From positions 1 through 38,689 of the forward strand of contig JYFJ02003697.1 in assembly GCA_000934665.2 (NCBI GenBank): DNA of 38,689 nt, in the 5' to 3' direction. Shown in pieces: positions 6,074 to 38,226 of the stretch. Positions within the stretch are counted from its first letter, which is position 1, and each line of letters begins with the position of its first letter. The DNA comes from Catajapyx aquilonaris (Eukaryota). Position numbers and translations under genes: made by a program. The notes beneath the pieces are model-generated. The model ran no database searches. It saw only the letters and a list, made by a program, of their open reading frames with translations, and was not told the origin of the DNA.

Positions 6074-6122
6074 TAAGACACACATGAATGTATTGATTTT
6101 TGTAAATCGAATCAAGCCTTCA

Positions 6123-6225
6123 TCTAAGCGCTATCTGCGATATTAGTTCTTTGCAGTCGCTTACCGGCTGACCCAACAGCTACGCTATTTTCTCCCAATC
6201 CAAGATGGCGCCTTCGTCTCGCTGA
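6123..6225 (+). promoter_or_regulatory. Conserved promoter/5'UTR block with YY1/Pho-type motif CAAGATGGCG (6201-6210), copy 2
   Basis: A ~100-bp non-coding block is highly conserved in all five visible 5' ends. It matches the YY1 consensus and marks the start of a GC/CpG-rich segment. Confidence 0.6.
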
Positions 6226-6391
6226 AATTGAGCGTCTTTTTGAGAGAATTTCCTCTTTTTTGGGTCGGGTTGTGTCCGGGTTGAGGGTAGGACCGGGTCG
6301 GATCGAAGCAGAGGGTCTGTCTTCCTTGCCCAGAGGACTTGGGAAAGAAACCATGGCTCCTGCGTACCGACAGTCGAGGAAGAAGGAGAAG

Positions 6392-9300
6392 ATGCCCCCC
6401 ACCGAGGAGGAGGAGGAGAGGAAGAAGAAGTGTCCCCTCCACCTGGAGGCCCGCCTGGAAGGGATCGTGTCCCGACTGGTCTCCCTGGAGGAGGACATGG
6501 CTGCCCTGAAGGAGTGGGCCAGGGGCTGCGGAAGGTGTGGGGCTGGACGGGGTGAGTATTTGGGGGCATTAAACACCTCTTCTCTACGTGAGATGTAAAT
6601 GAGGCTCTTCAGTTGCAGACGACAATCCTGGCGACTTACCTTCTGAAGCCATCGCTTCAGGCGGTGCTGGAGACTCAGTTCCTGTGGGCAGCATCAAGAC
6701 TGAGTGGGACCAGTGCAAGGAGGAGGAGGAGGTCACAGTGGAGGAGGAAGGTCCGCAAGGATTTCACGGTTGGGTGAGGATGCCTACTGAAATTGCTTAT
6801 TGGAGAGGTCAGGAGGTCAAGTGAAATGGCAGGATCAAAAATGGAAGGGGTGGGAAACGAGATGCTGCAAATGGGGTGATATTTCTGGAACTAATTGTGT
6901 CCTTTGTAACTACAGATTATTATAATATTTGTAGTGATTCAAAATCACTTGCATCACTTGAAGTCACAGTCTTGCACTTTGATAATAACAGTAGTTATGG
7001 ATGAAGAGTCACATCAACACATCACAGTTTTGTTGAAATGACTGGTTAAAGCCATGTTTACATGTGAGCGATTAGATCAGTGATGTTGCAGCGATGACAT
7101 CTCTGAGGAAAAGTAACAATATATTTTCATCCCATTGGTCTCATTGCTCAGTGAAGTCATCGCTGATCAAATCGCTCACATGTAAACACAGCTTAAATCT
7201 GACGTTAAATATTGATAGTTACGCAGTAACATGTTTCCCCCTTGTCATGGCAGAGTCAAGACTTGGAAGCCAGCGAAGCCAAAATATCCAGAAACATCCG
7301 TGAAATTGCTGCTCTCTTGAGTGGTTCAGACACTGAAGATGCCAGTTTCGTAAATACAGGTATGGATATGATGCTTATTCATTGATTACTGAAGGCCTTG
7401 GTTGCAGACTGTGCAGAATTAAAATCTCGGAAGTAGAAGTGGGTCAATGGGCAGCAGAAATCTCCATCAGAATATAGGTTCTACTGGTTATATGTCGCAG
7501 TATTAGTACTGTACAACCAACAGGGATAGTGTGCATCACATTGGAGCTGTCGATCCATCTAGCAGGGGGGCAGGCACGTGAAGGTCTCCCAATGTCAAGA
7601 TTAATACTATCAATCTCCCCTCAGCCTGAGAGATGATTTTTAATTACTTCAAGGCAGAAGTAGACATGTCTAGTGTAACGCCATGAATACCTTCCTGCCT
7701 TCCGTGCATCGGTCAACCCTGCTCCTTCTCTTCCACTTACCGTGTTTGTGACTGCGACAAGATGTCCATATGATACATGATGAGAATGCAATTGGCAAAC
7801 TTACATGTCCCTTACAATTTTCTCCACTACAGTGGGGTCATATCAACCTGACTGATTTATTTTGGCACAGTCAGCCCTATGGCGAAATACTTCTGCACCT
7901 TGTGACGCACTTGAAATGCCTTGGATAAAATAGTGTAATTATCCTAGAGGTTCCATATTTAGATTAATTGAATGGTAGGATCTGCCCTTTTCGGCGGGCA
8001 CCTTTCCACCACCGTTGATGTCGTTTTATGAGAATGAGATGCCTCTCACCAAATCAAGCAGCCACGATTTCAAGGTGGCCAAATTATTCTGAATTTGGCC
8101 AAGTATTAGAACAAGAGTAAACAATACTTCCAACTCTCTGCATTCTTCACGTCAAAGGTTCTGGAACTGCATTGCTTTGTGGCCTCTACTTTTATTTATT
8201 CTTTAAATTTCTTGAAGTTGTACAATACTGTGTCATTGCATTTTCACAGGTGGAGAAGCAGCCTCCACATCTGGAAATTCTCAAGAATCTCGCGGACTCT
8301 CCACACTTGATGGAGGAAACTTGGAGCAAGAAGGAGACCTTGGAAGCACAGACAGTACTATAGTATCTGAAAACCCTACAGCAGGTGAGGGTGATAGCCT
8401 TTCATCCGCGTTAGCTGACCCATCAATTGCACAAGCAAGCGGTTCAAGCAGAAGGAAGAGGAAGTGGAAGAAACTAGTTCTTGTAAGTAACATTCAGGCA
8501 GAAAAGGGGAGCATTTTCTTATCCACTTGTAATGACCACAATTTTTGGCAACACTGGGAATCTTGCATTCTCCTTTAAATATTGAAATAAGTACTCTGTT
8601 AAAAAGTATTATATCGGTAATTTGCAATAGTGTGACATAAATATTGACAGGTAGTAATAGAAAATTTTTACACATTTCCCAAGATTCTTAAACGTAACTT
8701 TTGCATACAAGCAACACACCAAATTTTGTCGGTCTTTAGTTACTTCCAACACTTGAGCAGCATTTTTAATGCTCTATGATCTGGTGAAGTCAATTTAGTC
8801 CTGCAGATTCATAATGAGACATGAAGGCAGGAATTTTTGTCTTAACTAGGGCTTGCCAGGTGTCCGGTATTTGAGGGATTTGTCCGAGAAGATATTTTTG
8901 AGGAAATACAATGGTTCAATGAATATGCAAAGTTATCGCTTGACTTTCCTTATGCTTACAGTGCACACTACTGGATACTGATAAATGAAACTATCCGTAA
9001 AATGCGAAATTAGCTCACAGAAAATTATGCAGGTCCAAATAAAAATCAGTAATTATCTTCTGCCATCTCCTCATTGCCAAACATGCCTGGAATGTTATTT
9101 AGGTTCAATTATCAATCTGTTAAGAACTTAAGCAGTGAAGAATTATTAATGAGTGTAATTAGGCATTCTTGACCACTGATTTCCTGTATTTCAGGTTCCT
9201 TTGCACAAGGACGCCGAGGACAGTGATCAGTCCCTGGCTGATTTGAATGATTCTGGGGATGAGTATATTCATCCACGTCGCTCAAAAGACAATGGTCGTG

Positions 9301-11108
9301 CTGCCTTGCAGGGAAAGAGAGAGAAAGGTGCTCCCTTGAGGAGGAAGCGAACAGGAAAGGTATGTCTTGCTAAATGACTGACCAATTCAGACCCTCGTCA
9401 CTTCAGGGCAATGGTAGGACTCAAGGAATCTTCCTACATTACTTTGGGAGGATTCAATTGTTATACCTACTAATATTTGCAATTACACTAAAAGCAAATA
9501 TTTAAAAGGGTATTGGGGGGAAAAACTGATGACCATTGGTGATCATGCAATGGGAACACTTCATATTTTGTTGGTCCATGTAATGAAACCCCCTAGCTTG
9601 CCAAAATACACTGTACTCCCTATTATACGTGCTAATGAATGAACGAGTGTTCCCGGACATTCAAAAAAGACGGATAATGCGAAAACGGTCCTAGATGCAC
9701 TAAAAACGAGCTATTCACTGGTTTTTAATGTACTACTATACTATATCGCTCAAAAACATAGAGACGATTTTGCATTTGATTCAATTGCAGGCTGCACGTG
9801 AGTCAAATGCAAAATCGTCTCTAAGTTCTTGAGCGATATAGTACATCGTGTATGCTTTTTTAACCCCATATCCGCCCGGGCTGGTTTCCAAAGACATAAG
9901 ATGCCAAATTTTAAAAGACGAATATACGTATCAATACTGGCTTGGAAAGGGAGAGCAAAATTTTACCAGGGCACTCACCAAATGTACCAGAATCATATAA
10001 ATTCAACACATATTGGCTGAATCAGGGATGGAAAAAGAACCGCTTCTTTGGGCGGTAAGCGGTTCTTTTTCTATCCCTGCACATGGAAAAAAGAAGCGCT
10101 TCTTGGAAGGAAGCGGTACTTTTTCCATCTCTGGGCTGAATCAATTTCTGAAAGAAAAATGGTGGTGTTCCAACCCCCTGTGAGGGCCCATGGTCCTATC
10201 ACAGGGTATTAAGAAATAATACAAATAAAAAATAAATAAAATACTAAGGCATAGTGTGATATCTCATCATCTAACCACCACCAGCACGCAGAGTGCTAAT
10301 CCCACAGCACCACCAAACTACATATTTTGGTCATGGCACAGCTAAAATCATATGGGATAAATAAAGCTGTGAATGTCGTATCGGGTTCCATGTAATTGTT
10401 TTTATTTGATTAGATAAAAATGACTCACAGTCAGTTGTTTTGAATGCATATTTTATTTGTAGTAATGGTAAATTTTCTTTAAAGGAAAATTCCGAAATCC
10501 AATCAGCTGGAACAGAAACTTCAATGAGAATCTCCGGAGACTTTCATAAGGATGGTGCAACTTCAGATGTGGGCATGGCAAGGAATCTGACACCAAGGAA
10601 GAAGACAGCTAACAAGAAAAAGCCAGGATCAGTCCAGACTCGAGAGAAGCGGAGGTTGACTAGTAATGAAAAACTTTCATCTGATGACAAGCCGTACCCA
10701 TGCAGTGATTGTGATAAGACGTATATTACAAAGAAGGGGTTACGAGGACATTACAGTAATATCCATCTTGGTGTGAGGCCTCATTCATGTGACGTGTGTA
10801 ACAAGACATACACTACGAAGAGACTCATGGAAATTCACAGGAGGACTCACACTGGAGAAAAGCCATACCAGTGCAAAGTCTGCAAAAGTAGCTTTTTTAC
10901 ACATTCTGGATACAGCAGGCATGTTTGGCGTCACAAAGGACTGAAACCATTTGTATGCACCATTTGTGGCAGTAGATTTGCGTTTACACATAACTACCAA
11001 AGACATATGTTGGTTCATTCAGGGGAAAAGCCATTTAAATGTGACTTTTGTGGGACACAGTTCACCCAAAAAGGAAGCATGCGGAAGCATATGAAATTAA
11101 TGCATTAG
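6392..11108 (+). CDS. C2H2 zinc-finger protein, copy 2 (5 fingers, ~482 aa)
   Basis: Exons 6392-6551 (in-frame upstream ATG at 6353 also possible), 6613-6773, 7254-7359, 8250-8482 (fused exons 4+5), 9195-9359, 10485-11108. The frame is open through all junctions. Confidence 0.9.
7050..7193. mobile_element. Ancestral Harbinger-like MITE in intron 2 (remnants in all six copies)
   Basis: TIRs AGC..TGTTTACATGTGAGCG / CGCTCACATGTAAACACAGCT flanked by TAA on both sides. Homologs near 250-394, 14304-14467, 19179-19341, 30329-30503 and from 38504. Confidence 0.7.
9741..9841. mobile_element. Hairpin MITE with TA flanks
   Basis: ~43-bp inverted arms CTATATCGCTCAA.AAC.TAGAGACGATTTTGCATTTGA with TA on each side. 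Confidence 0.75.
10023..10133. mobile_element. hAT-type MITE
   Basis: TIRs CAGGGATGGAAAAAG / CTTTTTCCATCTCTG and an exact 8-bp target duplication GGCTGAAT (10015-10022, 10134-10141). Confidence 0.88.
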
Positions 11109-11535
11109 GCAAGGATAAGGCCATTTACCCTTACCTCGGTCACCTCATACTTTTGTGGAAATGCTAAGAAGCATATCTGGACACATGCTTCAAGGCAGAT
11201 TCACAAATCGCTAAATTTTGGAGTTCCTTGAAAATTCAATATACGTTACGACTATCTTTTGGTTTGCTAAAATGATAGGAAGCCACCACATCCCAATGAT
11301 TTCATACTGTTTAAGACTGAAATGTGTCCAGACATTGGTCATATAATTATGATCCTGTCTTTACATGCACAAACGAGTTTTATTATCTGTGCATAAAAGT
11401 GTTATCGATGCAAAAATGTGCGCATGTTTTTTACAATGACAGCTTGGAACAAATCTGCTGGTATATTTTTAGATCCTCCTCTGCTAGGGCCAGTTTCACA
11501 GAGGAGGTTAAACTTTATTTTAGAACCTAGGTTAT

Positions 11536-11802
11536 AATAATAATAATGGATACCCCGTGATAGGCCCCTTGGGTCTCTTAGGGGATCATCTTTTGAATAT
11601 CCGATTTTAATCATTTGCCTTTGCTGTGATGGATTTTGATAGTGGGAGGAAACGGGAGAACCCCGAGAAAACCCACGCGAACACGGAGAGAACCCATCGA
11701 ATCTCTATCCACATAAGTATCCCCCATCCGACCCGGGGATCGAACTCGGGACCTTAGAGGTGGAAGGCTGCGGCGCTAACCGCTCGGCCACCGTGTCGCC
11801 GC
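11536..11802 (-). mobile_element. Full-length tRNA-derived SINE with a V-domain-like core
   Basis: On the minus strand: A box TGGCCGAGCGG, B box GAGTTCGATCCC, core TTCTCTCCGTGTTCGCGTGGGTTTTCTCGGGGTTCTCCCGTTTCCTCCCAC, (ATT)n tail. 12-bp TSD AACCTAGGTTAT (11524-11535, 11803-11814). Confidence 0.92.
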
Positions 11803-12733: not shown

Positions 12734-15700
12734 ATGCCCCCCACCGAGGAGACCCCTCCCCTCCTGGAGGCCCGCCTGGAAGGGATCGTGTCCCGACTGG
12801 TCTCCCTGGAGGAGGACATGGCTGCCCTGAAGGAGTGGGCCAGGGGCTGCAGGAGATGTGGGGCTGGACGGGGTGAGTATTTGGGGGCATTAAACACCTC
12901 TACGTGACATGTAAATGGGGCTCTTCAGTAGTTGCAGACGACAATCCAGGCGACCCACCTTCTGAAGCCATCGCTTCAGGCAGTGCTGGAGACTCAGTTC
13001 CTGTGGGCAGCATCAAGACTGAGTGGGTCCAGTGCAAGGAGGAGGAGGAGGAGGTCGCTGTGGAGGATGAAGGCCCACAAGGAATTGATGGTTGGGTGAG
13101 GATGCCTACTGAAATTGCTTATTGGTGAGGTCAGGAGGTCAAATGAATTGGCAGGGTCAAAAATGGAAGGGGTGGGAAATGGGGGTAATTGGACGACGTG
13201 GGAGGGATGGATGGGAGTAGTGAAAAGCGCCCACCCGGACAATATTATAACTCTGCCCCAGATGACCTGGCCACGAAGTTGGGTGGGAGGATTTGGGGGT
13301 CGATGGCATGATGTGTGAATACAAGGCATGGCTTGTCTACGCAAGTGCAAGGTCATTATAATTATTGCCCCTTCTTTTAAACCAGCCAGGTGTCGAGTTT
13401 TAACATCTCAATGCAAAAATGTAGGGAACAGAGGGGGAGTGGGAAAGCTGCCCCCTTCTCATTATGTCTTTATCAGCATGAAACAATATTTACAGTTGCT
13501 TAAATTAGTGCAGCTAGCCAATATTTTAATGCAGCTGATTTCCAGTCTCGCCGGCAACTTGTAATTGCTGTATGTCGCTCATGGAGTATATGAAGCACAT
13601 TATAATCCCCACAAGCTACATGAAACGCCTCATCATGCATTGTTGCAGTGGTCTACATCATTGCGAATGGGGAAGAGGGGTGCATTGGCCAAGTCCCACA
13701 ACCAGAAACCAGTTGGAAGTGATCCATTGCAATAATAAATGATGAGGGTTATATTAACCGGTAGTGATTGTTGATGGGTGTTTATAATTAGTTGCTGGGG
13801 GTAAACGAGCAACGTCATTTCCTACCCTACCACCCTCATCTAACTACATCAGTGCACAAAGACCTAGTCAGTGTAAACTGCTCGTCAACAGTGTCCCGCA
13901 TTTGTTGCCCATTCCGAAACCTTTATTCTTGCATGGCACTGGCATCGTCATTCTGACATGTTGTCTGGGTCCAAGTCTTGTGATGAACCTACTGAAACAT
14001 GTGCACCAATTCCGCAAAAAATGCAAAATAGATTTATGCAAATAAAGGCGACATATAATCAAGCGATCCGGAATATATTATCCAGAAAAGGCCTCCCAAG
14101 GCCATGCAAGCTTCCTAGAATTTTATTACAGCACGACACATGGGTCGAATTAAGAAGAGGGGGCCTATGACCTTGCACTTCTTCAGATAAGCTCATGGTC
14201 TTGATAAGCTATAACAGCTATACCTTTTTCCACTTTGATAATATAATGGTAGTTAGGGATGAAGAGTCGAACACATCACAGTTTTCTTGAAATTTCTGTT
14301 TAAAGCCACATTTACAGGTGAGCGATTTGATCAGTGATGTTGCAGGGATGACATCTCTTAGCAAAAGTAACAATACATTTTCACCCCAAACAACAATTGG
14401 TGTCATTGTTCAGCGATGTTATCGCTGCAATGTACTTGATCAGATCACTCGAATGTAAACGGGGCTTAATGCTGGTATTAAATATTGTTGGTTAGAGAGT
14501 AACATGTTTCCCCCTTGTCATGGCAGAGTCAAGACTTGGAAGCCAACGAAGCCGAAATATCCGGAAACAGAAATGTCAGCATACTTGCTGCTCTCTTGAG
14601 TGGTTCAGGCACAGATGATGCCTGTTTGGCAAATACAGGTATGATATATTACTGATGGCCCCATCCATCTAGCAAGGGGGCAGGCATATGAAGATCTCCA
14701 TTAAGCCTGATCTGATACTTTTTTATTCCTTCATGACAAGTCTAATGTGATGCCATGAAAACCTAGGGCCACTAAAAGTTCTAAAGCTACAGGTCCATAA
14801 CAATTGCATTGTTATTGCAGGGAAAGATGAGTCCTCTCTTGACGACTGTTCAAAAGAGGAAAAAACTATCATAGACGAAGGAGAGAAGGAATTGGAGGAA
14901 AGCGATCTGGTCCAAGGTCATTTTTAGACATGAGTCCATGTTAGCATGCAGCTTGTGACGCATATTAAATACCTTGTATAAAATACGGTAGTTATCCTAG
15001 AAGTTCCATATTTAGTTTAATTGTATGCCAGGACCCATGCTTTTTAGAGGGCACATTTCCAGCACCCTGGGTGTCGTTTTATGAGCATGAGATGACTCTC
15101 AGCAATTCGAGCAGCCGCGATTTCAAGGTGGCCAAATTATTCTGAATTTGGCCAAGTATTAGAACAAGAGTAGATAAAACTTCCAACTTTCTGCATTCTT
15201 TAAGTGAATGTTTCTGGAACCCCATTGGTTTGTGCCCTCTACTTTTATTTATTCTTTAAATTATTTGAAGAATTTCTGTACTATGCCATTGCATTTTCAC
15301 AGGTAGAGAAGCAGCCTCCACATCTGGATTTCCTCAAGAATCTCGCGGACTCGCCACACTTGATGGAGGAAACTCGGTGCACGACGAAGAACTCGGAAGC
15401 AGAGAAAGTACTGGAGTATGTGAAATATTATATTTGTTTCAAATGGATAATATCAAGTAGGGCAAGGAATCTGTTGGATGGCAGTGGATATAGCAATAGC
15501 CACATGCAGATTTTAATCATGGTCATTTCATTAAATGTTAGTGTTAACAAATAACATGTGATGGCATGTGAACATGTTTCTGGAGGCCTGGAAGCCATAG
15601 ATTGAAGATTTCTCAGATCTAGGCCCTCCCCATCACATTCTCAGGATGCACCTCTGAGCTGCAATGTTATTCTGTGTCATAGGTCTCTGCTTCTGAAGTC

Positions 15701-17296
15701 CCAGACCACCCTAAACCAGAGGAGGGTGAGATCCTTCCACCCCCATCAGCTGACCCATCAAGTGCACAAGCAAGCGGTCCAAGCCGGAGGATGAGGACGA
15801 GGAAGAAACAAGTTCTCGTAAGTAACATTCTGCCAGAAAAGGGGAGCATATTCTTATCCACTTGTAACGACCACATTTTTTTGGCAACGATGGGAATCTT
15901 GCATTCTTCTTCAAATATTAAAATAAGTACTCTGTTATACAGTATTATCTCAGTAATTTGAAATTACGTCACAGAAATATTGACAGGTAGCAATTCCAAA
16001 TTTGTGCACTTTTCTCAAGATACGTAAACATAGCTTTTGCATACAAGCGACATGCAATATTTTGTCGGTTTTTAGTTATTTCCAACACTTGAGCATCATT
16101 TTTAATGCTGTCTGATCTGGTGAAGTCCATTTAGTCCTGAAGATTCATAATGAGCCAGGAAGGCAGGGATTTCTGTCAGTGGCGTAGCCTGCCGCAGATA
16201 TCAAGGGGTGCGTATGAGGCGCTCGAACATGAGGAAGTGGTGCTTCATGTATGTCGGGTAGCACCGGCTCCTGGGAAATTTGTCTGGCCGAAGAAGAGCC
16301 AGGATAGTTTGTTAATCATTGTTGACAGAATTGTTGACAACAATGAATAACAAACTAACTGGTCTCTTCTCCTGCCAGATTAATTTTCCGCGAGCCGGTG
16401 CAACCCGGGTTTAGTCATTTCTGCATTACATGCTATCGCACCCTGTAATTCCCTTGTTAGTACTGTAGTATCTCATCATCTAACCACCAGCATGCACCTG
16501 CAGCACCACCAAACTATTTTGGTCATGGCACAGCCGATATCATATGGCATGAATAAAGAGCTGTGTATGTCACATTGTGTTTCATGTAATTTTTTATTTG
16601 ATTAGATCAAAATGACTCAGTTGTTTTGAATGCATATTTTATTTGTAGTAATGTTGATTTCTTTTTAAAAAGGAAAACTCCGAAATGCAAGCAGCTGAAA
16701 AAAATACTTCAAAGAGAACATCGGGAGACTTTCATAAGGATGGTGCAACTTCAGATCCGGGCTTGACAAGGAATCCGACACCAAGGAAGAGGACAGCAAA
16801 CAAGAAGAAGCCAGATTCAGTCCAGACTCAAGAGAAGCAGACGTTGACTGGTCATGCGAAACATGCATCGGATGATAGGCCATACCCATGCAGTGATTGT
16901 GATAAGACTTATACGACAAGGAATGGGTTACATTTGCATTACAAGGATGTCCATCTTGGTGTTAAGCCTTACTCATGTGACTTGTGTAACAAGAAATTTG
17001 CTGGGAAAACTCACATGGATATTCACAGGAGGAGTCACACGGGAGAAAAACCATTCCATTGCGAAGTGTGCGGAAAGAGTTTTTTATCTAGTTCTAATTA
17101 CCAACAGCACGTTTGGCTACACAAAGGATTGAAACCATTCGGATGCACCATTTGTGGCAAAAGTTTCGCTTTTTCGGGACACTTTCAGAGGCACATGTTG
17201 GTGCACTCAGGCGAGAAGCCTTTTAAATGCGATTTGTGTGGACAACAGTTCAACCGAAAAGAACACATGCAAAAACATGTGGAACTAAAGCATTAG
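12734..17296 (+). CDS. C2H2 zinc-finger protein, copy 3 (5 fingers, ~429-461 aa)
   Basis: Exons 12734-12872, 12929-13095, 14527-14638, [candidate extra exon 14821-14916], 15303-15415, 15683-15817, 16673-17296. No exon 6 homolog is present; the frame is preserved because exon 6 is phase 0-0. Confidence 0.87.
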
Positions 17297-18751: not shown

Positions 18752-21277
18752 ATGTCGTCCCCCACCGCCGAGGAGAGGAACCCTCCTCCCCTCCTGGAGG
18801 CCCGCCTGGAAGGGATCGTGTCCCGACTGGTCTCCCTGGAGGAGGACATGGCTGCCCTGAGGGAGTGGGCCAGGGGCTGCGGAGGGTGTGGGGCTGGACG
18901 GGGTGGGTTGCTAGGGGGGACCACCCTTAGAATGATGTAAACACTCTCTGGGATGTGCTTCTTTCTCCTCTTCAGCTGCAGGACAAGGCCATCCAGGCCA
19001 CCCTCCTCCTGAAGGCCTCTCTCCTTCAGGCGGGGCTGGTGGAGACTCGGTCGCTGTGATGGGCAGCATCAAGACAGAGTGGGGCCAGTGCAAGGAGGAG
19101 GAGGAGGTCACGGTGGAGGAGGAAGGCCCGCAAGGAATTATTGGCGGTTGGGTGAGGATGCCTGCTGGAATTGCATAGAGCCACGTTTATATGTGAACGA
19201 TTTGATCAGCGATGTTGCAGCTACAACAGAAATGAGCAAAAGTAACAATGGAGGTAACAATATATTTACACCCCAAACAATTGGTCTCATTCCTCAGCGT
19301 TGTCATCACTGATCAAATCACTCATTCATGTAAACATGGTTTAAGGTGACACAATAAAGTGGGCTCTACGCACAGTCGATCCAACTCCGACTCTCACCGA
19401 CTCGGAGGCATCGGACACCCTTTCCAGACAGACATCTGCTGTTCAATGTCCGACGTCCAATGTTTGATCTTCGAAAAGTCCATTAGTGTAATATGGCAGC
19501 AGAAATCGCGTGAAAACCGGACACATTTTTGTGGACGTACGTCCACAATTGTAATGCAATCATGTGAAGGTGCCCTAGTTCATGGTTTTGCAGATAAACG
19601 CCGCGTTTCGCTACAAAGAAGTAAAGTCCCTCCAAAATGTGCCTAGCGTATTCTTCCTACTGCATATTAATTATTGTTAGTTGGACAGTAACATGTTTCC
19701 CCCTTGTCATGGCAGAGTCAAGACTTGGAAGCCAACGAAGCCATAATATCCAGAAACATCAGTGAAATTGCTGCTCTCTTGAGTGGTTCAGATATAGAAG
19801 ATGGCAGTTGGGCAAATGCAGGTATGATATAGAGTAAAACTTCTGTAAGTTGAATCTCCATGGGACTGGAACAAAACTTCGAGATGTAGAAGATTTGAGG
19901 TTGAGAATTTTGGAATTTTTAAAGCACATAACGCAATAAGGAAGCCTACCTTTATATCCAGCTACGAAAGGTGTTCAAAACTTAAAAATAACTGTCACTA
20001 TCACACTTACAATGTTCCTCTTTGTTTTGTTGTAAAAGAAATCTCTGTGATGGACATTTGCCTACTCTTACATTCAAGGATTCAATTGACACAATCGAGT
20101 CAAGCACTTCTTTCGGTACGTCTGTTAGACAGAGATCAGAAAATTGAGCCTTTCTGTACATGCGAACTACTCTCTACCCTTCGGCTGGGAAATGAGAACA
20201 CCGTATACTCGCCAACATGAACTTCGACTTAGGGAGACTGAAAATGCATTGATATCCCATCGTAAGGTATATTACCCACAATTATAATTATAATAATAAT
20301 AATATCCCATCGTAAGGCCCTGCCAGCACTTCGAGTTATAGAAATTCGAGTTAGGGAAGTTTATTTCCTATTATTTTACATTGTGACCAACCAAGCTCAT
20401 CATTTTCTTCGACTTATAGAGAACTTCGACTTAGGGAAGTTTGACTTATAGAAGTTTTACTGTATTACTGAAGGTTTTGGTTGTAGACTGTGCAGAACTT
20501 AAATCTCAGAAGTATAAGTGGGGCAGTGGGTGGCAGAAATCTCCATCAGTATATTGGTCTAATGTTGCTGCATGGTTGAACTTTACAACCAACACGTGTA
20601 AGGTCTACCCATATAAAAATTAATACTATCAACCTCCACTCAGCCTGATCTGATGCTCTTTTATTCCTTCAAGACGGAAGCAGACGAGTCTAGTGTGATG
20701 CCATGAAAACCCAGGGCCACTTGTATGTGTTGTACAGTATGGAGAATATTGTAGGAAGCTACATTTTTTTCTTCTATTAGAACAAGAGTAAATAGAACTT
20801 CCAACTTCCTGCATTCTTTACATGAAAGTCTCTAGAACTGAATTGCTTTGTGGCCTCTACTTTTATTTATTCTTGAAATGAGGCGTAATAAAAATTATTA
20901 AGGGGGAGACTGAGTGGCGCCGCGGTAATGGGCGCGCCCACGGATGTTAAGGTCCCGGGTTCGATCCCAGCCCGGGGACACCCCCTTCATCTCGTGCAGA
21001 GTTTAGGGCCATCTCTGACTTCGTCTCGGGTGGTATTTCCTATAGACTAAACCACCCAGGGGAGCTCACAAAATGACCACATATGTCATTGCACTGCACT
21101 TGCACATCCCCTCCTGTCATCCTCCCTATCGCTCGCGGTACCCGGGCGTTACGGCAAAAGGACCAACTGTATCAAGCTTGTACAAATTTAAGCATAAATA
21201 AAGGTACTGTGCCAATGCCCTAGGGCGGTGCACTAAAACCCAATTATTATATTATATATTATTATAATAAAAATAAA

Positions 21278-21313
<36 letters not shown>

Positions 21314-22260
21314 TATTATTATTATTATTATTATTGTTATTATTATTATTAATTATTATTCTTGAAATTATTTGAAGATGTACAGTACTATGCCATTTCA
21401 TTTTCACAGGTAGAGAAGCAGCCTCCACATCTGGATTTCCTCAAGAATCTTCCGGACTCTCCACACTTGATGGAGGAAACTCTGAGCAGGAAGAAGAACT
21501 CGGAAGCAGAGAAAATACTTTAGTACGTTTGCGAAATATTATTTTTGTTTCAAATGGATAATGGCAAGTATGGTGGGGAATCTGTTGGATGGCAATCGAT
21601 ATTGCGGTGGCCAGCTCCAGCATTTAATCATGTTCATTTCCTTAATGTAATTGTTAACAAATAACGTGTGATGTCATGTGAGCATGTTCCTGGAGGCCTG
21701 CAAGCCATAGATTGAAGATTTCTCATATCTAGGCCCTCCCCATCACATTCTCAGGATGCACCTATGAGCTGCAATATTTATTATTCTACGTCGTAGGTAG
21801 CTGCTTCTGAAGACGCAAACAACTCTAAACCACGTGAGGGTGACAGCCTTCCACCCCCGTCAGCTGACCCATCAATTGCACAAGCTAGCAGTCCTAGGAG
21901 GAGGATGAGGAGGAAACAAGTTCTTGTAAGTAACATTCTGGCAGGAAACGGGAGCATGTTCTTATCCACTTGTAATGAGCACATTTTCTGGCAACATATG
22001 CAGTAACATTCATCTCGTGCAGAGTTGGGTCGTATCTGGCTTCGTTTCGGGTGGTATTTCCAACAGACTAAGCCACCCGGGGGAGTTCACTAAAAATGGC
22101 CACATAAAGACATTGCATTGCACCTTGCACATCCCCTCCTGTCATCCTGCCCGTGGGCCCGGGCGTTACATATAAAGCCTCCAATGTGCACGACATAATA
22201 AATAAAGGTCCGTGCTATATACCTCTGATGAGGTCAGCACCAACCCGGATATTATTATTA

Positions 22261-25300: not shown

Positions 25301-26771
25301 GTGTAGCATGAAAGCGCCTTTTCCAGTGCAACCTGCAAAGCTAAAAACCCGTCAACCAGGTTCAACCCAATGCATTTGCCTTGCATTTGCCAGTCCGCAC
25401 CACTCAGTATGAACACAAAGTAGGATGTGATGTCACGCCGTACGGCCGTAATAAATAAATTGATTAACTGCCGTATGTCTCCTTGTTTTATGAAACCAGC
25501 TCGGGTTGTCGCCACCTACGAGTTTTCCCCGCCCCCTAGCTTGACCCGTGACTGAAACGCCCTGTATAGATACTGCTCGCACCACCTGGGAGTAATGGGG
25601 CACCTGGATCAGGGTGTGACAAGCTGCACAAACCAGGCTAATTTACATCATATTAATGATAACTATTAATAAAAAATTACCCAGCATTGATTGATTGATT
25701 GATTTTTTTTTTTTTTTTTGTGCAAGAGCCACACAGGCTATACTATGATAAACATAATTATGTTACATTGTCAGGCATGGCAGGCATTTGGAATGAATAC
25801 TAAGTAGTATCTAATCATCTGACCACCAGCACGCAGAGTGCTAAACGCTAATCCCACACCACCACCGAACTATTTTGATCATGGCACAGCTTAAATCATA
25901 ATAGGATTTAAGCTGTGCCATGATCAAAATATGTTATGTGATAAATAAAGCTGTGAATGTCGCGTTGGGTTTCGTGTAATTGTTTTTATTTGATTAGATT
26001 TAAAAAAGTCAGTTGTTTTTGAATGTGTATTTTATTTGTAAGTAATGGTGAATTTTTTAAAAGGAAAACAACGAAATGCAAGCAGTGGAAAAAAATACTT
26101 CAATGGGAACTGCTGGAGACTCTCATAAGGATGGTGCAACTTCAGATCTGGGCATGACAAGGAACCTGACGCCAAGGAAGATGACAGCAAACAAGAAGAA
26201 GCCAGGATCAGTCCAGACTCGAGAGAAGCAGAGGTTGACCGGTCATGCGAAACTTGCATCTGATGATAGACCTTACCCATGCAGTGATTGTGATAAGAGG
26301 TATACTACAAAGTGGGGGTTACAAATGCATTGCAAGGATGTCCATCTTGGTGTTAAGCCTTACTCATGTGACATCTGTGATAGGAAATTTGCTAGGAAGT
26401 CTGGCATGGTTGATCACAGGAGGAGTCACACAGGAGAAAGGCCATTCCAGTGTGAATGGTGCGAAAAATGTTTTTCTTCAAGTTCTAACTACAACGATCA
26501 TGTTCGGGTTCACAAAGGATTGAAACCATTCCATTGCACCATTTGTGGCAAAAGATTTGGTCAGTCAGGAAACTTACACCGGCACATGTTAATGCACTCA
26601 GGTGAGAAGCCTTTTCAATGTAGCACTTGTGGGAAAAAATTTGGTCGGTCAGGAAACTTACATCAGCACATGTTAATTCACTCAGGTGAGAAGCCTTTTG
26701 AATGCAATTTGTGTGGCAAACAGTTCAACCAAAAAGAACACATGCGGAGACATGCGGAACGAAAGCATTAG
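18752..26771 (+). CDS. C2H2 zinc-finger protein, copy 4 (6 fingers, ~507 aa)
   Basis: Exons 18752-18902, 18976-19151, 19716-19821, 21410-21522, 21797-21925, 24420-24560, 26064-26771. All boundaries are GT-AG; the total is 1524 nt with an open frame. Confidence 0.9.
19345..19665 (+). mobile_element. TTAA-targeting non-autonomous DNA element (Kolobok-like GG...CC termini), copy 4 intron 2
   Basis: Begins TTAA-GGTGACACAATA. The ortholog in copy 5 ends TACTGCGTCGCC-TTAA. Absent from copies 1-3. Confidence 0.6.
19832..20462. mobile_element. Tc1/mariner-pogo (Tigger-like) non-autonomous element, copy 4 intron 3
   Basis: TIRs (C/G)AGTAAAACTTCT.TAAGT and a TA target duplication. The empty site GATATATTACTGA is in copy 3 (~14643). 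Confidence 0.88.
20902..21359 (+). mobile_element. tRNA-derived SINE with compound (AAT)n/(ATT)n tail
   Basis: A box-like TGGCGCCGCGG, B box GGTTCGATCCC, microsatellite tail at ~21243-21359. Same family as 22009, 28798 and 36868. Absent in copy 5 intron 3. Confidence 0.88.
22009..22320 (+). mobile_element. 5'-truncated SINE (same family as 20902) with (ATT)n tail at 22249-22320
   Basis: Aligns from TTCATCTCGTGCAGAG onward to the SINE at 20902. Confidence 0.85.
22587..23950. mobile_element. 1.36-kb non-autonomous DNA transposon with ~290-bp TIRs (Academ-like TAG...CTA ends)
   Basis: TIRs 22587-22879 and 23667-23950 are nearly identical, with a 3-bp ATA TSD (22584-22586, 23951-23953). The empty site TGCATACTGATTAATG is in copy 1. 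The superfamily call is inferred from termini and TSD length. Confidence 0.88.
24124..24365. mobile_element. Small TIR element with AATT TSD (Sola-like GAG...CTC ends)
   Basis: GAGGAAAAACGGC / GCCGTTCTTCCTC inverted match and AATT on both sides. The empty site GAAGAATTAATGAG is in copy 1. Confidence 0.68.
25034..25564. mobile_element. Fold-back Tc1/mariner-type MITE (left end truncated), copy 4 intron 6
   Basis: The whole element is an imperfect palindrome. The right end reads TGAAACGCCCTG-TA. Orthologous to 34205-34785. Confidence 0.85.
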
Positions 26772-28032: not shown

Positions 28033-28382
28033 TATTTACAATGAAAGCTAGGAACAAATCTGCTGGTATATTTTTAGATCCTCTTCTGCTAGGGCCAGTT
28101 TCACAGAGCAGGTTATAATTAATTTTAGAACCTCGGTTATAACAAGAGTTGCCATAGTTGATGGCGACGAAAGGTAATGATTTTCCGAGAAGAAACTCGG
28201 ATTTATAATATAACCTTCTCAATGAAACTGGCCCTAGCCTTTTTCGGCTACTGACGGGTACGTCAATAAGTGGGCAATAATTCCTCCTCTTTGTGTTTGG
28301 AATTGTGAAGGATAGGAGTAGATTGTGGAGGCAATTTATTGGGATTCTGAATGATTACAATCATGATTGGAGACAAGTTGTT

Positions 28383-29743: not shown

Positions 29744-30506
29744 AATTGAGCGTCTTTTTCAGAGAATTTTCTGTTTTTGGGACGTGTAGTGTCCGGGTTG
29801 AGGGTATAGCCGGGTCGGATCGAAGCAGAGGGTCTGCCCTTCGTGCCCAGAGGACTAGAGGAACAATCCTTGCCCCCCCAAGCGGACCACCAGTCGAGGA
29901 AGGACATGCCCCCCACCGCCGAGGAGAGGAACCCTCCTCCCCTCCTGGAGGCCCGCCTGGAAGGGATCGTGTCCCGACTGGTCTCCCTGGAGGAGGACAT
30001 GGCTGCCCTGAGGGAGTGGGCCAGGGGCTGCGGAGGGTGTGGGGCTGGACGGGGTGGGTTGCTAGGGGGGACCACCCTTAGAATGATGTAAACACTCTCT
30101 GGGATGTGCTTCTTTCTCCTCTTCAGCTGCAGGCCAAGGCCATCCAGGCCACCCTCCTCCTGAAGGCCTCTCTCCTTCAGGCGGGGCTGGTGGAGACTCG
30201 GTCGCTGCTGTGGGGAGCATCAAGACAGAGTGGGGCCAGTGCAAGGAGGAGGAGGAGGTCACGGTGGAGGAGGAAGGCCCGCAAGGAATTATTGGCGGTT
30301 GGGTGAGGATGCCTGGTGAAATTGTTTAGAGCCACGTTTATATGGGAACGATTTGTTCAGCAATGTTGCTGCTACAACAGAAATGAGCAAAAGTAACAAT
30401 AGAGCTAACAATATATTTTGACCCCAAACAATTGGTCTCATTCCTCAGCGTTGTCATCGCTGCAACATCGCTGATCAAATCACTCACGCATGTATACACC
30501 GCTTAA

Positions 30507-32239: not shown

Positions 32240-33472
32240 TATTACTGAAGGCTTTGGTTGTAGACTGTGCAGAATTTAAATCTCAGAAGTAGAAATGGGG
32301 CAATGGGCAGCAGAAATCTCCATCAGAATATTGGTCTAATGTTGCATCATGGTTGAACTTTACAACCAACAGGTATTGCGTGTGTCACATTGGAGCTGTC
32401 CATCCATCTAGCACGTGTAAGGTCTACCCATATCAAAAGTAATACTATCCATCTCCATTCAGTCTGATCTGATGCTCCTTTATTCCTTCAAGACGGAAGC
32501 AGAGGAGTCTAGTGTGACGCCATGAAAACCCAGGGCCACTTGTATGTGTTGAAGATGGAGAATAATTGTAGCCAACTTAATTTTTTTCTTGTATTAGGAC
32601 GAGTGTGAATAAACCTTCAAACTTTCTGCATTCTTTACGTGAAAGTCTCTGGAACTGAATTGCTTTGTGGCCTCTACTTTTATTTATGCTTGAAATGGGG
32701 CGTAATGAAAATTATTATTATTATTATTTATTATCATTATTCTTGAAATTATTTGAAGATGTACAGTACTATGCCATTGCATTTTCACAGGTTGAGAAGC
32801 AGCCTCCACATCTGGATTTCCTCAAGAATCTTCCAGACTCTCCACACTTGATGGAGGAAACTCTGAGCAGGAAGAAGAACTCGGAAGCAGAGATAATACT
32901 TTAGTACGTTTGCGAAATATTATTTTTGTTTCAAATGGATAATGGCAAGTATGGTGAGAAATCTGTTGGATGGCAATCGATATTGCGGTGGTCAGCTGCA
33001 GCATTTAATCATGTTCATTTCATTAAATGTTAGTGTTAACAAATAACATGTGATGTCATGCGAACATGTTCCTGGAGGCCTGCACGCCATAGATTGAAGA
33101 TTTCTCAGATCTACGCCCTCCCCGTCACATTCTTATGATTCACCTCTGAGCTGCAATATTATTCTATGTCGTAGGTCTCTGCTTCTGAAGACTCAGACAA
33201 CCCTAAACCATGTGAGGGTGACAGACTTCCACCCCCATCAGCTGACCCATCTATTGCACAAGCAAGCGGTCCAAGCAGGAGGATGAGGACGAGGAAGAAA
33301 CAAGTGCTGGTAAGTAACATTCTGGCAGAGGGGAGCGTCCACTTGTAATGAGCACATTTTCTGGCAACACTGGGAATATTGCTTGCTTCTTGAAATATTG
33401 AAATATGTAGTCTGTTATACAGTACTGTCATGGGGAGGCGGAGTCGTAAGCACCCACTATATCTCAAGCGTC

Positions 33473-35231: not shown

Positions 35232-36023
35232 GAAAACTACGAAATGGAAGCAGTGGAAAAAAATACTTCAATGAGAACTGCTGGAGACTTTCCTAAGGAT
35301 GGCGCAACTTCAGATGTGGGCACGACAAGGAATCTGACACCTAGGAAGATGACGGCAAACAAGAAGAAGCCAGGATCAGTCCAGACTCATGAGAAGCAGA
35401 GGTTGACCGGTCATGCGAAACTTGCATCTGATGATAGACCTTACCCATGCAGTGATTGTGATAAGACGTATACTACAAAGACTGGGTTACTTTTGCATTA
35501 CAAGAATGTCCACCTTGGTATTAAGCCTTACTCATGTGACTTGTGTAACAAGAAATTTGCTGCGAAGACTCACATGGTTGATCACAGGAGGAATCACACA
35601 GGAGAAAGGCCATTCCAGTGCGAATGGTGCGAAAAATGTTTTCCTTCAAGGTCTCATTACCACCACCATGTTCGGGTTCACAAAGGATTGAAACCATTTC
35701 ACTGCACCATTTGTGGCAAAAGATTTGGTCGGTCAGGAAACTTACACTGTCACATGTTAATTCACTCAGGTGAGAAGCCTTTTGAATGTAGCACTTGTGG
35801 GAAAAGATTTGTTCAGTCAGGAAACTTACACAAGCACATGTTAATTCACTCAGATGGGAAGCCTTTTGAATGTACCACTTGTGGCAAAAGATTTGGTCAG
35901 GCAGGACACTTACACCGCCACATGTTAATTCACTCAGGTGAGAAGCTTTTCGAATGCAACTTGTGTGGCAAACAGTTCACCCGAAAAGCCGGCATGCGGA
36001 CACATGTGCAACTAATGCATTAG
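35232..36023 (+). CDS. Intact 7-finger C2H2 terminal exon of copy 5
   Basis: Open frame with seven canonical fingers and an internal ATG at 35244. Confidence 0.75.
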   Translation, partial: ENYEMEAVEKNTSMRTAGDFPKDGATSDVGTTRNLTPRKMTANKKKPGSVQTHEKQRLTGHAKLASDDRPYPCSDCDKTYTTKTGLLLHYKNVHLGIKPYSCDLCNKKFAAKTHMVDHRRNHTGERPFQCEWCEKCFPSRSHYHHHVRVHKGLKPFHCTICGKRFGRSGNLHCHMLIHSGEKPFECSTCGKRFVQSGNLHKHMLIHSDGKPFECTTCGKRFGQAGHLHRHMLIHSGEKLFECNLCGKQFTRKAGMRTHVQLMH

Positions 36024-36867
36024 GCATGGCATTCAACTGCATATGATAAGAAAGGATATGTGTATTTTTCTCTACCAAGGTCACCTCACACTTTAGTGGA
36101 AATGCTTGTGTGCTTCTTAACATACCTTGTGATTAGCTTAAAGGCAGATTCACTAATGACTGAATTTTGGAGCTGCAGGACTAATTTAGTGCCCGGAATA
36201 TTCAAAGCTGTTCATGTAGTTATGACTATCTTTTGGTTTGCTCAAATGAAAGTAAGCCCCCACATCCCATTGATCTCATTCTGTTCAAGAGAGAAATGTG
36301 TCCAGACATTGGTCATATAATTATGTCCTGTCTTTACATGCAGAAACAAGTGTTATTACCTGTGCATGAAAGTGTTAAGGTGCATTTACAAGTGAGCGAT
36401 TTGAAGGGTGAAGCAGATCGAAACCTTCATTGGCGCTGAGTAACCCAAGTAATCAATATTGTTTGAGGCGAACATCAATTGTTAATTTCAGCCTTGGCGA
36501 AGATTTTGCTTGTCAAATCGCTCGCATGTAAACGCACCAACCTTTATTGATGCAAAACTATGCGAAGGATTTTACAATGAAAGCTTGGAACAAATCTGCA
36601 GGTATATTTTTAGATCCTCTTCTGCTAGGGCCAGTTTCACGGAGCAGGTTATAATTTATTTTAGCACCTTGGTTATAACAAGAGTTGCCATAGTTGATGG
36701 CAACGAAAGGTAATGATTTTCCGAGAAGAAACTCGGATTTATAATATAACCTTCCCAATGAAACTGGCCCTAGCCTTTTTCGGCTACTGACGGGTATGTC
36801 TATAAGTGGGCAATAATTCCTCCTCTTTGTGTTTGGAATTGTGAAGGATATGAGTAGATTGTGGAGG

Positions 36868-37158
36868 CCCGGGTTTGATCCCAGCCTGGGGACACGCCCT
36901 TCATCTCGTGCAGAGTTTTAGGCCATCTCAGACTGCGTCTCGGGTGGATTTTCCAGGAGACTGAACCACCCGGGGGAGTTCACAAAATGACCTAAGCAAC
37001 TGTACTGCACTGCCCCTTGTACCAGTACATCTTCTCCTATCACCTTCCCTCTCGCGCGCGGTACCTGGGCATTTACGCCAAAAAGGACCAACTTGCACTA
37101 AAAGGTACTGTGCCAGATGCCCATTGGGCGGAGCACTAAACCCGATATTATTATTATT
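36868..37158 (+). mobile_element. 5'-deleted SINE, ortholog of 28798-29105
   Basis: Same family and same 3' flank (the MITE beginning GGGTGGAATT). Short (ATT)n tail. Confidence 0.83.
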
Positions 37159-37870: not shown

Positions 37871-38226
37871 ATGTCCCCCACCGAGGAGAACCCTCCCCTC
37901 CTGGAGGCCCGCCTGGAAGGGATCGTGTCCCGACTGGTCTCCCTGGAGGAGGACATGGCTGCCCTGAAGGAGTGGGCCAGGGGCTGCAGGAGGTGTGGGG
38001 CTGGACGGGGTGAGTATTTGGGGCCATTAAACACCTCTACTTGACATGTAAATGAGGCTCTTCAGTTGCAGACGACAATCCAGGCGACTTACCTTCTGAA
38101 GCCATTGCTCCAGGAAATGCTGGAGACTCAGTTCCTGTGGGCAGCATCAAGATTGAGTGGGACCAGTGCAAGGAGGAGGAGGAGGTCGCTGTGGAGGATG
38201 AAGGCCCGCAAGGAATTGGCGTTTGG
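37871..38226 (+). CDS. ZNF paralog copy 6, exons 1-2 (3' partial)
   Basis: Exons 37871-38009 and 38066-38226 are homologous to copies 2 and 3 and in frame. Intron 2 runs off the window. Confidence 0.82.

What the first reader, a model, noticed from the sequence alone, without database searches (positions are those of the whole stretch)
6443..6551. Unrecognised N-terminal module: three-heptad helix ending in CxxC
Seen: LEARLEGIVSRLVSLEEDMAAL[K/R]EWARGC[GR][RG]CGAGR occurs in all five visible first exons. Hydrophobic residues fall at 1,5,8,12,15,19,22 (4-3 spacing) and are followed by one invariant CxxC. It is not a ZAD, which needs two CxxC pairs, and I see no KRAB, SCAN or BTB signature. Inference: a short coiled coil whose CxxC pairs from two subunits could share one zinc (as in the Rad50 hook), or an oligomerisation helix like those of COMP/thrombospondin. 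An identical module would let paralogs hetero-oligomerise and combine DNA specificities.
Basis: partly seen in the sequence, partly recalled or inferred. Interest (0 to 1): 0.75.

Follow-up and report, generated by a model that had tools for sequence, protein, structure and literature searches.

The report
Orphan helix-CxxC head on zinc-finger genes
Five neighbouring zinc-finger genes all begin with the same short helical segment ending in two cysteines; it matches no known protein family and probably lets the proteins stick to each other or to a shared partner, though this is untested.

Summary
A 36-codon module (LEARLEGIVSRLVSLEEDMAAL[K/R]EWARGC[G/R][R/G]CGAGR) occurs in 5 of 5 first coding exons of a tandem C2H2 zinc-finger array, always with an in-frame ATG, a phase-1 GT donor and an open, phase-matched exon 2. 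It is 6443-6550; base 6551 starts a split codon.

AlphaFold2 (monomer) gives one confident helix. Strong hydrophobics fill 7 of 8 a/d heptad positions (0.43% of shuffles). Residues 11-16 (RLVSLE) match the R-h-x-x-h-E trimerisation motif in the right register.

No relative was found: Pfam, PDB sequences, Foldseek, 1.84 billion representatives, the 5.8-billion-protein index, ESM Atlas and metagenome contigs gave nothing credible.

It is not a ZAD, Rad50 hook, DUF3669, KRAB, SCAN or BTB. My best reading is a lineage-specific self-association helix with a possible metal-binding CxxCG cap. Oligomer state and zinc binding are untested, because the complex predictor was unavailable.

One caveat: outside three codons the 108 bases are identical in all copies, with no synonymous changes where exon 2 shows 26-35%. 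Gene conversion or nucleotide-level constraint therefore contributes, and protein-level selection cannot be shown from these five copies. No RNA evidence was available.

The parts
6443..6550 (+). Helix-CxxC module, gene 1 (36 codons; xx = GR)
   Evidence: AF2 helix
12764..12871 (+). Helix-CxxC module, gene 2 (xx = RR)
18794..18901 (+). Helix-CxxC module, gene 3 (K23R; xx = GG)
29945..30052 (+). Helix-CxxC module, gene 4 (K23R; xx = GG; identical in DNA to gene 3)
37901..38008 (+). Helix-CxxC module, gene 5 (xx = RR); the gene is cut by the window end
6353..6551 (+). Gene 1 first coding exon: ATG at 6353 (second in-frame ATG at 6392), ends in phase 1 before GTGAGT. Equivalent exons: 12734-12872, 18752-18902, 29906-30053, 37871-38009
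   Evidence: In-frame ATG in 5 of 5 copies; ATG-to-module spacers of 30, 30, 39, 42 and 51 (or 90) bases
6552..6618 (+). Intron 1 of gene 1 (67 bases; 62-79 in the five genes)
   Evidence: Donor GTGAGT in 3 of 5 and GTGGGT in 2 of 5; acceptor ...TGCAG in 5 of 5
6619..6773 (+). Exon 2, acidic, with conserved core GSIK[T/I]EWxQCKEEEEV. Paralogues: 12938-13095, 18982-19151, 30133-30302, 38072-38226
   Evidence: lengths 155, 158, 170, 170, 155, all leaving phase 0 before GTGAGG, with an in-frame stop within 25 codons after the donor in 5 of 5. No Pfam hit
7254..7359 (+). Exon 3 of gene 1 (phase 0 in, phase 1 out). Paralogues start at 459, 14527, 19716 and 31402
   Evidence: lengths 88, 106, 112, 106, 106, with a GTATG donor in 5 of 5 genes examined (g0-g4)
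8250..8482 (+). Fused exons 4+5 of gene 1 (intron 4 absent), ending in a basic tract (RRKRKWKK) before GTAAGT
10485..11108 (+). Last exon of gene 1 with five C2H2 fingers. Paralogous last exons end at 4259, 17296, 26771 and 36023
6125..6290 (+). Conserved upstream block (probable shared promoter and 5' leader), 89-98% identical among the five units

Best explanation
The module is the translated N-terminal domain of a young, tandemly duplicated family of C2H2 zinc-finger genes. It is an amphipathic helix of about four heptads (L1 to A26/C29), followed by a Gly-rich CxxCG cap. Most likely it is a parallel coiled-coil-type self-association handle. The in-register R-h-x-x-h-E motif and the absence of a polar a-position residue make a trimer at least as likely as a dimer. 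Because the helix is identical in all paralogues, it would not discriminate between them, so mixed oligomers carrying different finger arrays could form. The cysteines (heptad positions d and g) may bind a metal between chains or with a partner once the helix frays.

Shown here: the sequence, its reading frame and splice logic, the predicted helix, the heptad pattern, and the lack of detectable relatives. Inferred only: self-association, stoichiometry, metal binding and mixing of paralogues.
For: - Frame and splicing: 5 of 5 copies have an in-frame ATG, a phase-1 donor and an open exon 2. One alternative + frame has no Met in gene 1.
- Phases run consistently through six exons, and exon-length differences are multiples of 3.
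- AF2 monomer: helix over residues 29-63 of the 66-residue gene 1 exon. Mean pLDDT is 94 and 97 for the two ten-residue blocks 31-50 and 83 for 51-60.
- Heptad pattern: 7 of 8 a/d positions are strongly hydrophobic, p about 0.004 by shuffling.
- RLVSLE at module residues 11-16 fits R(g)h(a)xxh(d)E(e) (motif definition from PMC3653964 and PMC5940361 passages).
- The g-to-e' pairs R11/E16 and D18/K23 are charge-complementary, as a parallel in-register assembly needs (read from the register table).
- The only PDB sequence matches are GCN4-type coiled coils, though none is significant (best E 0.26).
- Precedents for oligomerising heads on zinc-finger proteins: ZAD dimers (PMC7913770 passages) and DUF3669 trimers that also hetero-oligomerise (bioRxiv 10.1101/2025.03.01.640934 passages).
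Against:
- The helix is short (about four heptads) and has a Gly at position 7.
- The Eisenberg hydrophobic moment is not above shuffles.
- High pLDDT for a lone helix, from an alignment of five near-identical rows, says nothing about assembly.
- Outside codons 23, 30 and 31 there is not one base difference among the five copies. That is 0 synonymous differences over about 27 synonymous sites, while exon 2 shows pS 0.26-0.35 between the two subfamilies (P about 3e-4 or less). The conservation therefore cannot be credited to selection on the protein.
- No relative outside this window was found.
- In an ideal dimer or trimer the d and g cysteines of different chains are too far apart for one tetrahedral site.
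Confidence: 0.45

Rival explanations
1. The helix is a docking surface for a shared cofactor (an effector domain in the sense of KRAB or FiNZ) and not a self-association handle. The CxxC would complete a zinc site with cysteines of the partner, as in a zinc clasp.
For: Short, family-invariant N-terminal exons on expanding zinc-finger families are typically effector domains, for example FiNZ: 28 residues, one exon, no similarity to known domains (PMC10547256 passages). A lone CxxC needs two more ligands from somewhere. No second conserved Cys/His pair is seen in exons 1-5: only one further invariant Cys, in exon 2 (alignment). Intermolecular zinc sites such as CD4/CD8-Lck exist (PMC9569753 passage). 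The neighbouring acidic exon 2 is also conserved and could be the true effector part.
Against: The clean a/d heptad pattern, the complementary g/e charges and the in-register trimerisation motif are features of homotypic coiled coils. No partner is known or predictable here.
Confidence: 0.25
2. The invariance mainly reflects concerted evolution (short-tract, GC-biased gene conversion at the 5' ends of the units) or a constraint on the DNA or RNA itself. The peptide would be just a tolerated helical leader without a specific role.
For: There are 0 synonymous differences in 33 codons against pS 0.26-0.35 in exon 2. Genes 3 and 4 are 100% identical over the module plus intron 1 (79 of 79) and 97.6% over exon 2, within flanks of 83-93%, which marks a conversion tract at this spot. 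GC3 is 0.81-0.87 in exon 1 against 0.32-0.44 in exons 3-6. The upstream block is also 89-98% identical.
Against: Conversion would homogenise the xx codons too, yet 4 of their 6 bases vary while the 87 bases before and 15 after them are invariant, apart from one base in codon 23. Between subfamilies the sequence changes abruptly at both module borders: 15 of 30 and 12 of 30 bases identical just outside, and intron 1 is about 55% identical. A tract would have to coincide with the module repeatedly. The RNA fold is no more stable than shuffles (z +0.85). The reading frame, ATG and donor phase are kept in all five copies despite indels upstream.
Confidence: 0.2
3. Exon 1 is not translated in this frame: it is a 5' leader, or the genes start downstream.
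For: No RNA run was available to check. A short upstream ATG (6205-6225, 6 codons plus stop) precedes the main ATG if transcription starts further upstream.
Against: An in-frame ATG with a purine at -3 is present in 5 of 5 copies. ATG-to-module spacers differ by multiples of 3. The phase-1 donor joins an exon 2 that is open only in the matching frame and closes soon after its donor in 5 of 5. Downstream exons 2-5 contain no conserved alternative start that I noticed.
Confidence: 0.05

Closest known systems
DUF3669 head of a KRAB zinc-finger subset (L1 ORF1p-derived trimeric coiled coil; bioRxiv 10.1101/2025.03.01.640934, passages read; PMC6923878, search listing only)
   Same: An N-terminal coiled-coil-type helix on zinc-finger transcription factors. 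It carries an RhxxhE motif. Paralogues with near-identical heads could hetero-oligomerise.
   Different: No Pfam match. About 4 heptads against 10. One RhxxhE against two. It has a CxxC cap that DUF3669 is not described as having. No evidence of transposon origin. Different animal lineage.
ZAD (zinc-finger-associated domain) of arthropod C2H2 proteins (PMC7913770, passages read)
   Same: An N-terminal, cysteine-containing head on fast-expanding tandem zinc-finger genes, with a long amphipathic helix used for self-association.
   Different: ZAD has four invariant cysteines binding zinc within each monomer, and a fold of loop, beta-hairpin, short helix and long C-terminal helix. Here there is one CxxC, one helix, the cysteines come after the helix, and there is no Pfam hit.
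Rad50 zinc hook (PMC9569753, passages read)
   Same: A single CxxC per chain next to coiled-coil helix, so a full Cys4 site would need more than one chain.
   Different: The hook's CxxC sits in a hairpin at the apex between two antiparallel helices of one chain. Here there is no helix after the CxxC, and the helix pattern fits a parallel assembly.
FiNZ domain of cyprinid zinc-finger genes (PMC10547256, passages read)
   Same: A short, single-exon, family-invariant N-terminal sequence with no similarity to known domains, on a lineage-specific tandem expansion.
   Different: FiNZ is acidic and has no heptad/CxxC design. Here the acidic part is a separate second exon.
Designed three-stranded coiled coils with a cysteine layer that bind metals, e.g. 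a Ni(Cys)3 trimer (PMC10299331, abstract seen in the listing)
   Same: A Cys at a core (d) position of a putative parallel trimer would give a three-thiolate site on the axis.
   Different: Those are synthetic peptides. Here a second Cys at g and a Gly-rich context suggest a knuckle and not a continuous helix. Nothing has been measured.

Membership tests
ZAD (Pfam zf-AD) | Four invariant cysteines (two pairs) coordinating one zinc per monomer | tested here: not met
   Only one CxxC is conserved in 5 of 5 copies. An extra Cys/His (CPLH) occurs only in gene 1. Feature taken from PMC7913770 passages.
ZAD (Pfam zf-AD) | Match to the Pfam model | tested here: not met
   0 families at E up to 10 for the three exon-1 queries and at E up to 1 for gene 3 exon 1.
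ZAD (Pfam zf-AD) | Fold: N-terminal loop, beta-hairpin, short helix, long C-terminal helix | tested here: not met
   The AF2 model has helices 18-26 (low confidence) and 29-63 only, with no strands.
Rad50 zinc hook | CxxC in a hairpin between two antiparallel helices of the same chain | tested here: not met
   After the CxxC come GAGR and a Gly/Pro-rich exon 2. The AF2 helix ends at residue 63 with pLDDT 54.
Rad50 zinc hook | Zinc bound by two CxxC pairs from two chains | not testable with these tools
Rough geometry argues against it for an unfrayed helix.
DUF3669 | Match to the Pfam model | tested here: not met
   No Pfam family at E up to 10. That Pfam-A holds a DUF3669 model is recalled, not checked.
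DUF3669 | About ten consecutive heptads with two RhxxhE motifs, forming a trimer | tested here: not met
   About four heptads and one RhxxhE. Trimer state not testable. Feature taken from the preprint passages.
Parallel coiled coil (generic) | Hydrophobic a/d heptad pattern over at least 3-4 heptads in a helix | tested here: met
   7 of 8 a/d positions are strongly hydrophobic, reached by 0.43% of shuffles. Helix pLDDT 94-97.
Parallel coiled coil (generic) | Self-association in solution | not testable with these tools
   Complex prediction unavailable. Needs SEC-MALS, AUC or a multimer model.
R-hxxhE trimerisation motif | Arg(g)-h(a)-x-x-h(d)-Glu(e), with h(a) in I/L/V/M and h(d) in L/I/V | tested here: met
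   R11-L12-V13-S14-L15-E16 in the register set by the other core residues. Definition from PMC3653964. The same paper notes that the motif also occurs in some dimers.
KRAB / SCAN / BTB | Match to the Pfam models anywhere in exons 1-5 | tested here: not met
   0 families for exon 1, exon 2, exon 3 and exon 4+5 peptides. Only C2H2 families hit, in the last exons.
COMP/thrombospondin-type coiled coil with a cysteine ring | Secreted protein with interchain disulfides (feature recalled) | tested here: not met
   By reading: the N-terminus (MPPTEE...PPL) has no hydrophobic signal segment, and the protein carries basic tracts and C2H2 fingers. No signal-peptide program was run.

The most novel reading that the evidence does not exclude
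The module is a previously undescribed zinc-finger-associated oligomerisation domain: a short parallel coiled coil (probably a trimer) whose C-terminal CxxCG knuckles jointly clasp a metal ion between chains. Because it is identical across paralogues, it would assemble mixed oligomers that combine different finger arrays. A further twist is that its 108 bases are also constrained as nucleic acid.
Probability: 0.2. Interest if true: 0.7.

Novelty: new variant of a known kind. Interest (0 to 1): 0.45.

Why it matters
Expanding zinc-finger families usually owe their biology to a small shared head, such as KRAB, SCAN, ZAD, FiNZ or DUF3669. An orphan head built as a coiled coil with a cysteine cap would be another independent solution to the same problem. 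It would also be one of few candidates for intermolecular metal binding in transcription factors. If paralogues mix through it, DNA-binding specificity in this family would be combinatorial. The complete lack of silent-site variation is also a compact case for studying how gene conversion and selection interact in tandem arrays.

Tried and rejected
- **RNA evidence:** The look-up of sequencing runs on 6100-11200 listed no RNA holder, so read laying could not be used.
- **Own genome:** none is held, so no genome-wide census of the module was possible.
- **Pfam:** no family for exons 1-5.
- **PDB sequences:** 16 rows, all with E of 0.26 or more, all coiled-coil constructs; treated as not significant.
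- **Foldseek vs PDB:** 0 matches at E up to 10.
- **The search for homologous proteins, exon 1:** 'longer' gave 72 candidates, none scoring. 'near' gave no candidate.
- **Profile search of 1.84 billion representatives:** 1 hit at E 8e-4, in a repetitive 2792-residue protein over 22 positions. Rejected as spurious after a Pfam look.
- **ESM Atlas:** best score 0.86, below the 0.9 lead level.
- **Metagenome contigs:** 4 loci. The 3 that I translated share only the seed LREWARGC and no helix; L002 was not translated. Rejected as chance.
- **Last-exon search:** only generic zinc-finger proteins at 29-42% identity, with no close family member and no taxon signal.
- **RNA secondary structure of the module:** z +0.85, rejected.
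- **Second zinc-ligand pair within the chain:** only one more invariant Cys (exon 2). The His residues after the CxxC occur in genes 3 and 4 only. Rejected.
- **Earlier notes of this scan:** searches by sequence and by relatives found nothing.

Full report
**What is there**

The window holds a head-to-tail array of C2H2 zinc-finger genes on the + strand. Five 5' ends are visible (genes 1-5), plus the 3' part of a sixth gene at the left edge (g0).

A 25-base probe from the finding matches five places exactly. None of 100 shuffles gave any match.

Translation gives the same 36 residues each time, at 6443-6550, 12764-12871, 18794-18901, 29945-30052 and 37901-38008. 33 of 36 residues are invariant. 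Residue 23 is K or R, and the two x of CxxC read GR, RR, GG, GG, RR.

GT follows at 6552.

**Is it a translated exon?**

- Each copy has an in-frame ATG 10-30 codons upstream. The spacer differs in length and sequence (30, 30, 39, 42 and 51 or 90 bases), always by multiples of three.
- One of the other + frames is open but has no Met in gene 1.
- The exon ends in phase 1 at GTGAGT (3 of 5) or GTGGGT (2 of 5).
- After an intron of 62-79 bases and a ...TGCAG acceptor, exon 2 is open in the matching frame. It is 155, 158, 170, 170 and 155 bases long and leaves phase 0 at GTGAGG. An in-frame stop follows within 25 codons after that donor in 5 of 5 copies.
- Further exons keep the phase logic in g0-g4. 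Exon 3 enters in phase 0 and leaves in phase 1. Exon 4 needs one carried base. Exon 5 ends in phase 0 at GTAAGT. The finger exon starts in phase 0.
- Whole units, introns included, are homologous at about 70-90%.
- No RNA run could be listed, so the model rests on sequence logic alone.

**What the peptide looks like**

- AlphaFold2 (monomer, five-row alignment) gives a helix over residues 29-63 of the 66-residue gene 1 exon. Mean pLDDT per ten-residue block is 94 (residues 31-40), 97 (41-50), 83 (51-60) and 54 for the tail. The overall mean is 73.9.
- With L1 as heptad position d, the a/d positions read L, L, I, L, L, M, L, A, C. 7 of the first 8 are strong hydrophobics, reached by 0.43% of 200,000 shuffles allowed their best register.
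- The Eisenberg moment is not above shuffles. I report this as a result against the reading.
- Residues 11-16, RLVSLE, fit Arg(g)-h(a)-x-x-h(d)-Glu(e). This motif favours parallel three-stranded topology in short coiled coils, although it also occurs in some dimers (PMC3653964 and PMC5940361, passages).
- The g/e' pairs R11/E16 and D18/K23 are charge-complementary.
- The cysteines fall on d and g, in a Gly-rich context (G28, G30 in some copies, G33, G35). The C-x-x-C-G form recalls metal-binding knuckles; that resemblance is recalled, not tested.
- A rough C-alpha model with recalled Crick parameters puts cysteines of different chains 9.1-9.8 A apart in a dimer and 9.9-10.7 A in a trimer, apart from the d layer (6.1 and 7.6 A). 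One tetrahedral site allows about 8 A. A shared Cys4 zinc would therefore need the helix to fray before the CxxC.

**Relatives**

I found none.

- Pfam: no family for exons 1-5 at E up to 10 or up to 1; only C2H2 families, in the last exons.
- PDB sequences: 16 rows, all coiled-coil constructs, best E 0.26.
- Foldseek vs PDB: 0 matches.
- Word-indexed protein search: nothing among longer or similar-length proteins.
- Profile search of 1.84 billion representatives: one hit at E 8e-4, in a repetitive 2792-residue protein, which I reject.
- ESM Atlas: best score 0.86.
- Metagenome contigs: seed-only chance matches in the 3 of 4 loci that I translated.
- Finger-exon search: only generic zinc-finger proteins at 29-42% identity.

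Earlier notes of this scan are AI notes that I did not test. They say the genome is probably an arthropod, and that other pieces carry zinc-finger clusters with unrecognised helical heads, one ending in a kept Cys-x-x-Cys.

**The conservation is odd**

The copies fall into two subfamilies, A (genes 1, 2, 5) and B (genes 3, 4). Between A and B:

| Region | Similarity between A and B |
|---|---|
| Intron 1 | about 55% identical |
| 5' leader plus N-terminal spacer | 73-86% identical |
| Exon 2 | pS 0.26-0.35, pN 0.15-0.19 |
| Module | differs only at bases 68, 88, 90, 91, 93 (codons 23, 30, 31) |

- Over the other 33 codons (about 27 synonymous sites) there are no differences among all five copies. 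The probability is about 3e-4 or less at exon 2's rate, and Fisher tests give 0.003 to 0.0006.
- Just outside the module, ungapped identity between subfamilies is 15 of 30 and 12 of 30 bases.
- Genes 3 and 4 are identical over the module plus intron 1 (79 of 79), but only 89-93% identical upstream. This marks a conversion tract at this spot.
- GC3 falls from 0.81-0.87 in exon 1 to 0.32-0.44 in exons 3-6.
- The RNA fold is unremarkable, z +0.85.
- Against pure homogenisation, 4 of the 6 bases of the xx codons vary inside otherwise frozen sequence.

I conclude that site-specific constraint is present. Gene conversion or a nucleic-acid-level constraint also contributes, and five copies cannot separate the two.

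**Mechanism**

My best reading (0.45) is a family-specific self-association helix with a possible metal-binding cap. A trimer is at least as likely as a dimer. The module is identical across paralogues, so it would permit mixed assemblies.

Rivals:
- a cofactor-docking helix, perhaps with a zinc clasp (0.25);
- a largely conversion- or DNA-driven invariance of a tolerated leader (0.2);
- an untranslated exon (0.05).

**Comparison with known families**

- ZAD is excluded: it needs four cysteines per monomer and a different fold, and Pfam gives no hit.
- The Rad50 hook is excluded on architecture.
- DUF3669 is the closest in working principle: a coiled-coil head on zinc-finger factors, RhxxhE motifs, and homo- and hetero-oligomers. 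It is much longer, has no CxxC, and Pfam gives no hit.
- FiNZ is the closest in gene design.

**Verdict**

The feature is real and orphan. It is a new variant of the known theme of shared N-terminal heads on expanding zinc-finger families. Its function is untested.

Noticed in passing
window 6125-6290 and the equivalent blocks upstream of 12764, 18794, 29945 and 37901: A ~165-base upstream block is 89-98% identical in all five units, more conserved than the leader that follows it. It holds a short ATG-led frame (6205-6225, six codons plus stop) inside CCAAGATGGCGCC. It is probably a shared promoter/leader cassette.
   Followed up: partly
window 6693-6704 (exon 2 of gene 1) and paralogues: The most conserved part of exon 2 reads GSIK[T/I]EWxQCKEEEEV. 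IKTE fits the hydrophobic-K-x-E sumoylation consensus (recalled) and is followed by an acidic run. It may be the effector part of the N-terminal region.
   Followed up: no
window 8250-8482, compared with 15303-15415 + 15683-15817, 21410-21522 + 21797-21925, 1129-1241 + 1494-1628: Gene 1 lacks the ~250-275-base intron between exons 4 and 5 that the other copies have. The frame stays open across the join, so this is a near-precise intron loss in one young paralogue.
   Followed up: partly
window 32791-32903 (exon 4 of gene 4), TGA at 32793-32795: Gene 4 has an in-frame TGA as the second codon of exon 4, where the other copies have AGA or GGA. It may be a young pseudogene, or it may use an AG 12 bases downstream, which would keep the frame.
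   Followed up: no
window 18794-19151 versus 29945-30302: Genes 3 and 4 are 98-100% identical from the module through exon 2, but 83-93% identical in the flanks. This is a local gene-conversion tract.
   Followed up: partly
exon 1 versus exons 3-6 of genes 1-4: There is a steep third-position GC gradient: 0.81-0.87 in exon 1, 0.54-0.62 in exon 2 and 0.32-0.44 in exons 3-6.
   Followed up: no
window 11430-11540, 28035-28332, 36571-36868: A repeated element downstream of several genes is 88-96% identical. It overlaps minus-strand frames that share the stretch NLLCETGPSR.GSKNIPADLF. It is possibly a transposon fragment.
   Followed up: no
last exons 10485-11108, 26064-26771, 35232-36023: Finger number differs among paralogues: 5, 6 and 7 matched C2H2 stretches in genes 1, 3 and 4. 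The array is being remodelled while the head stays fixed.
   Followed up: no
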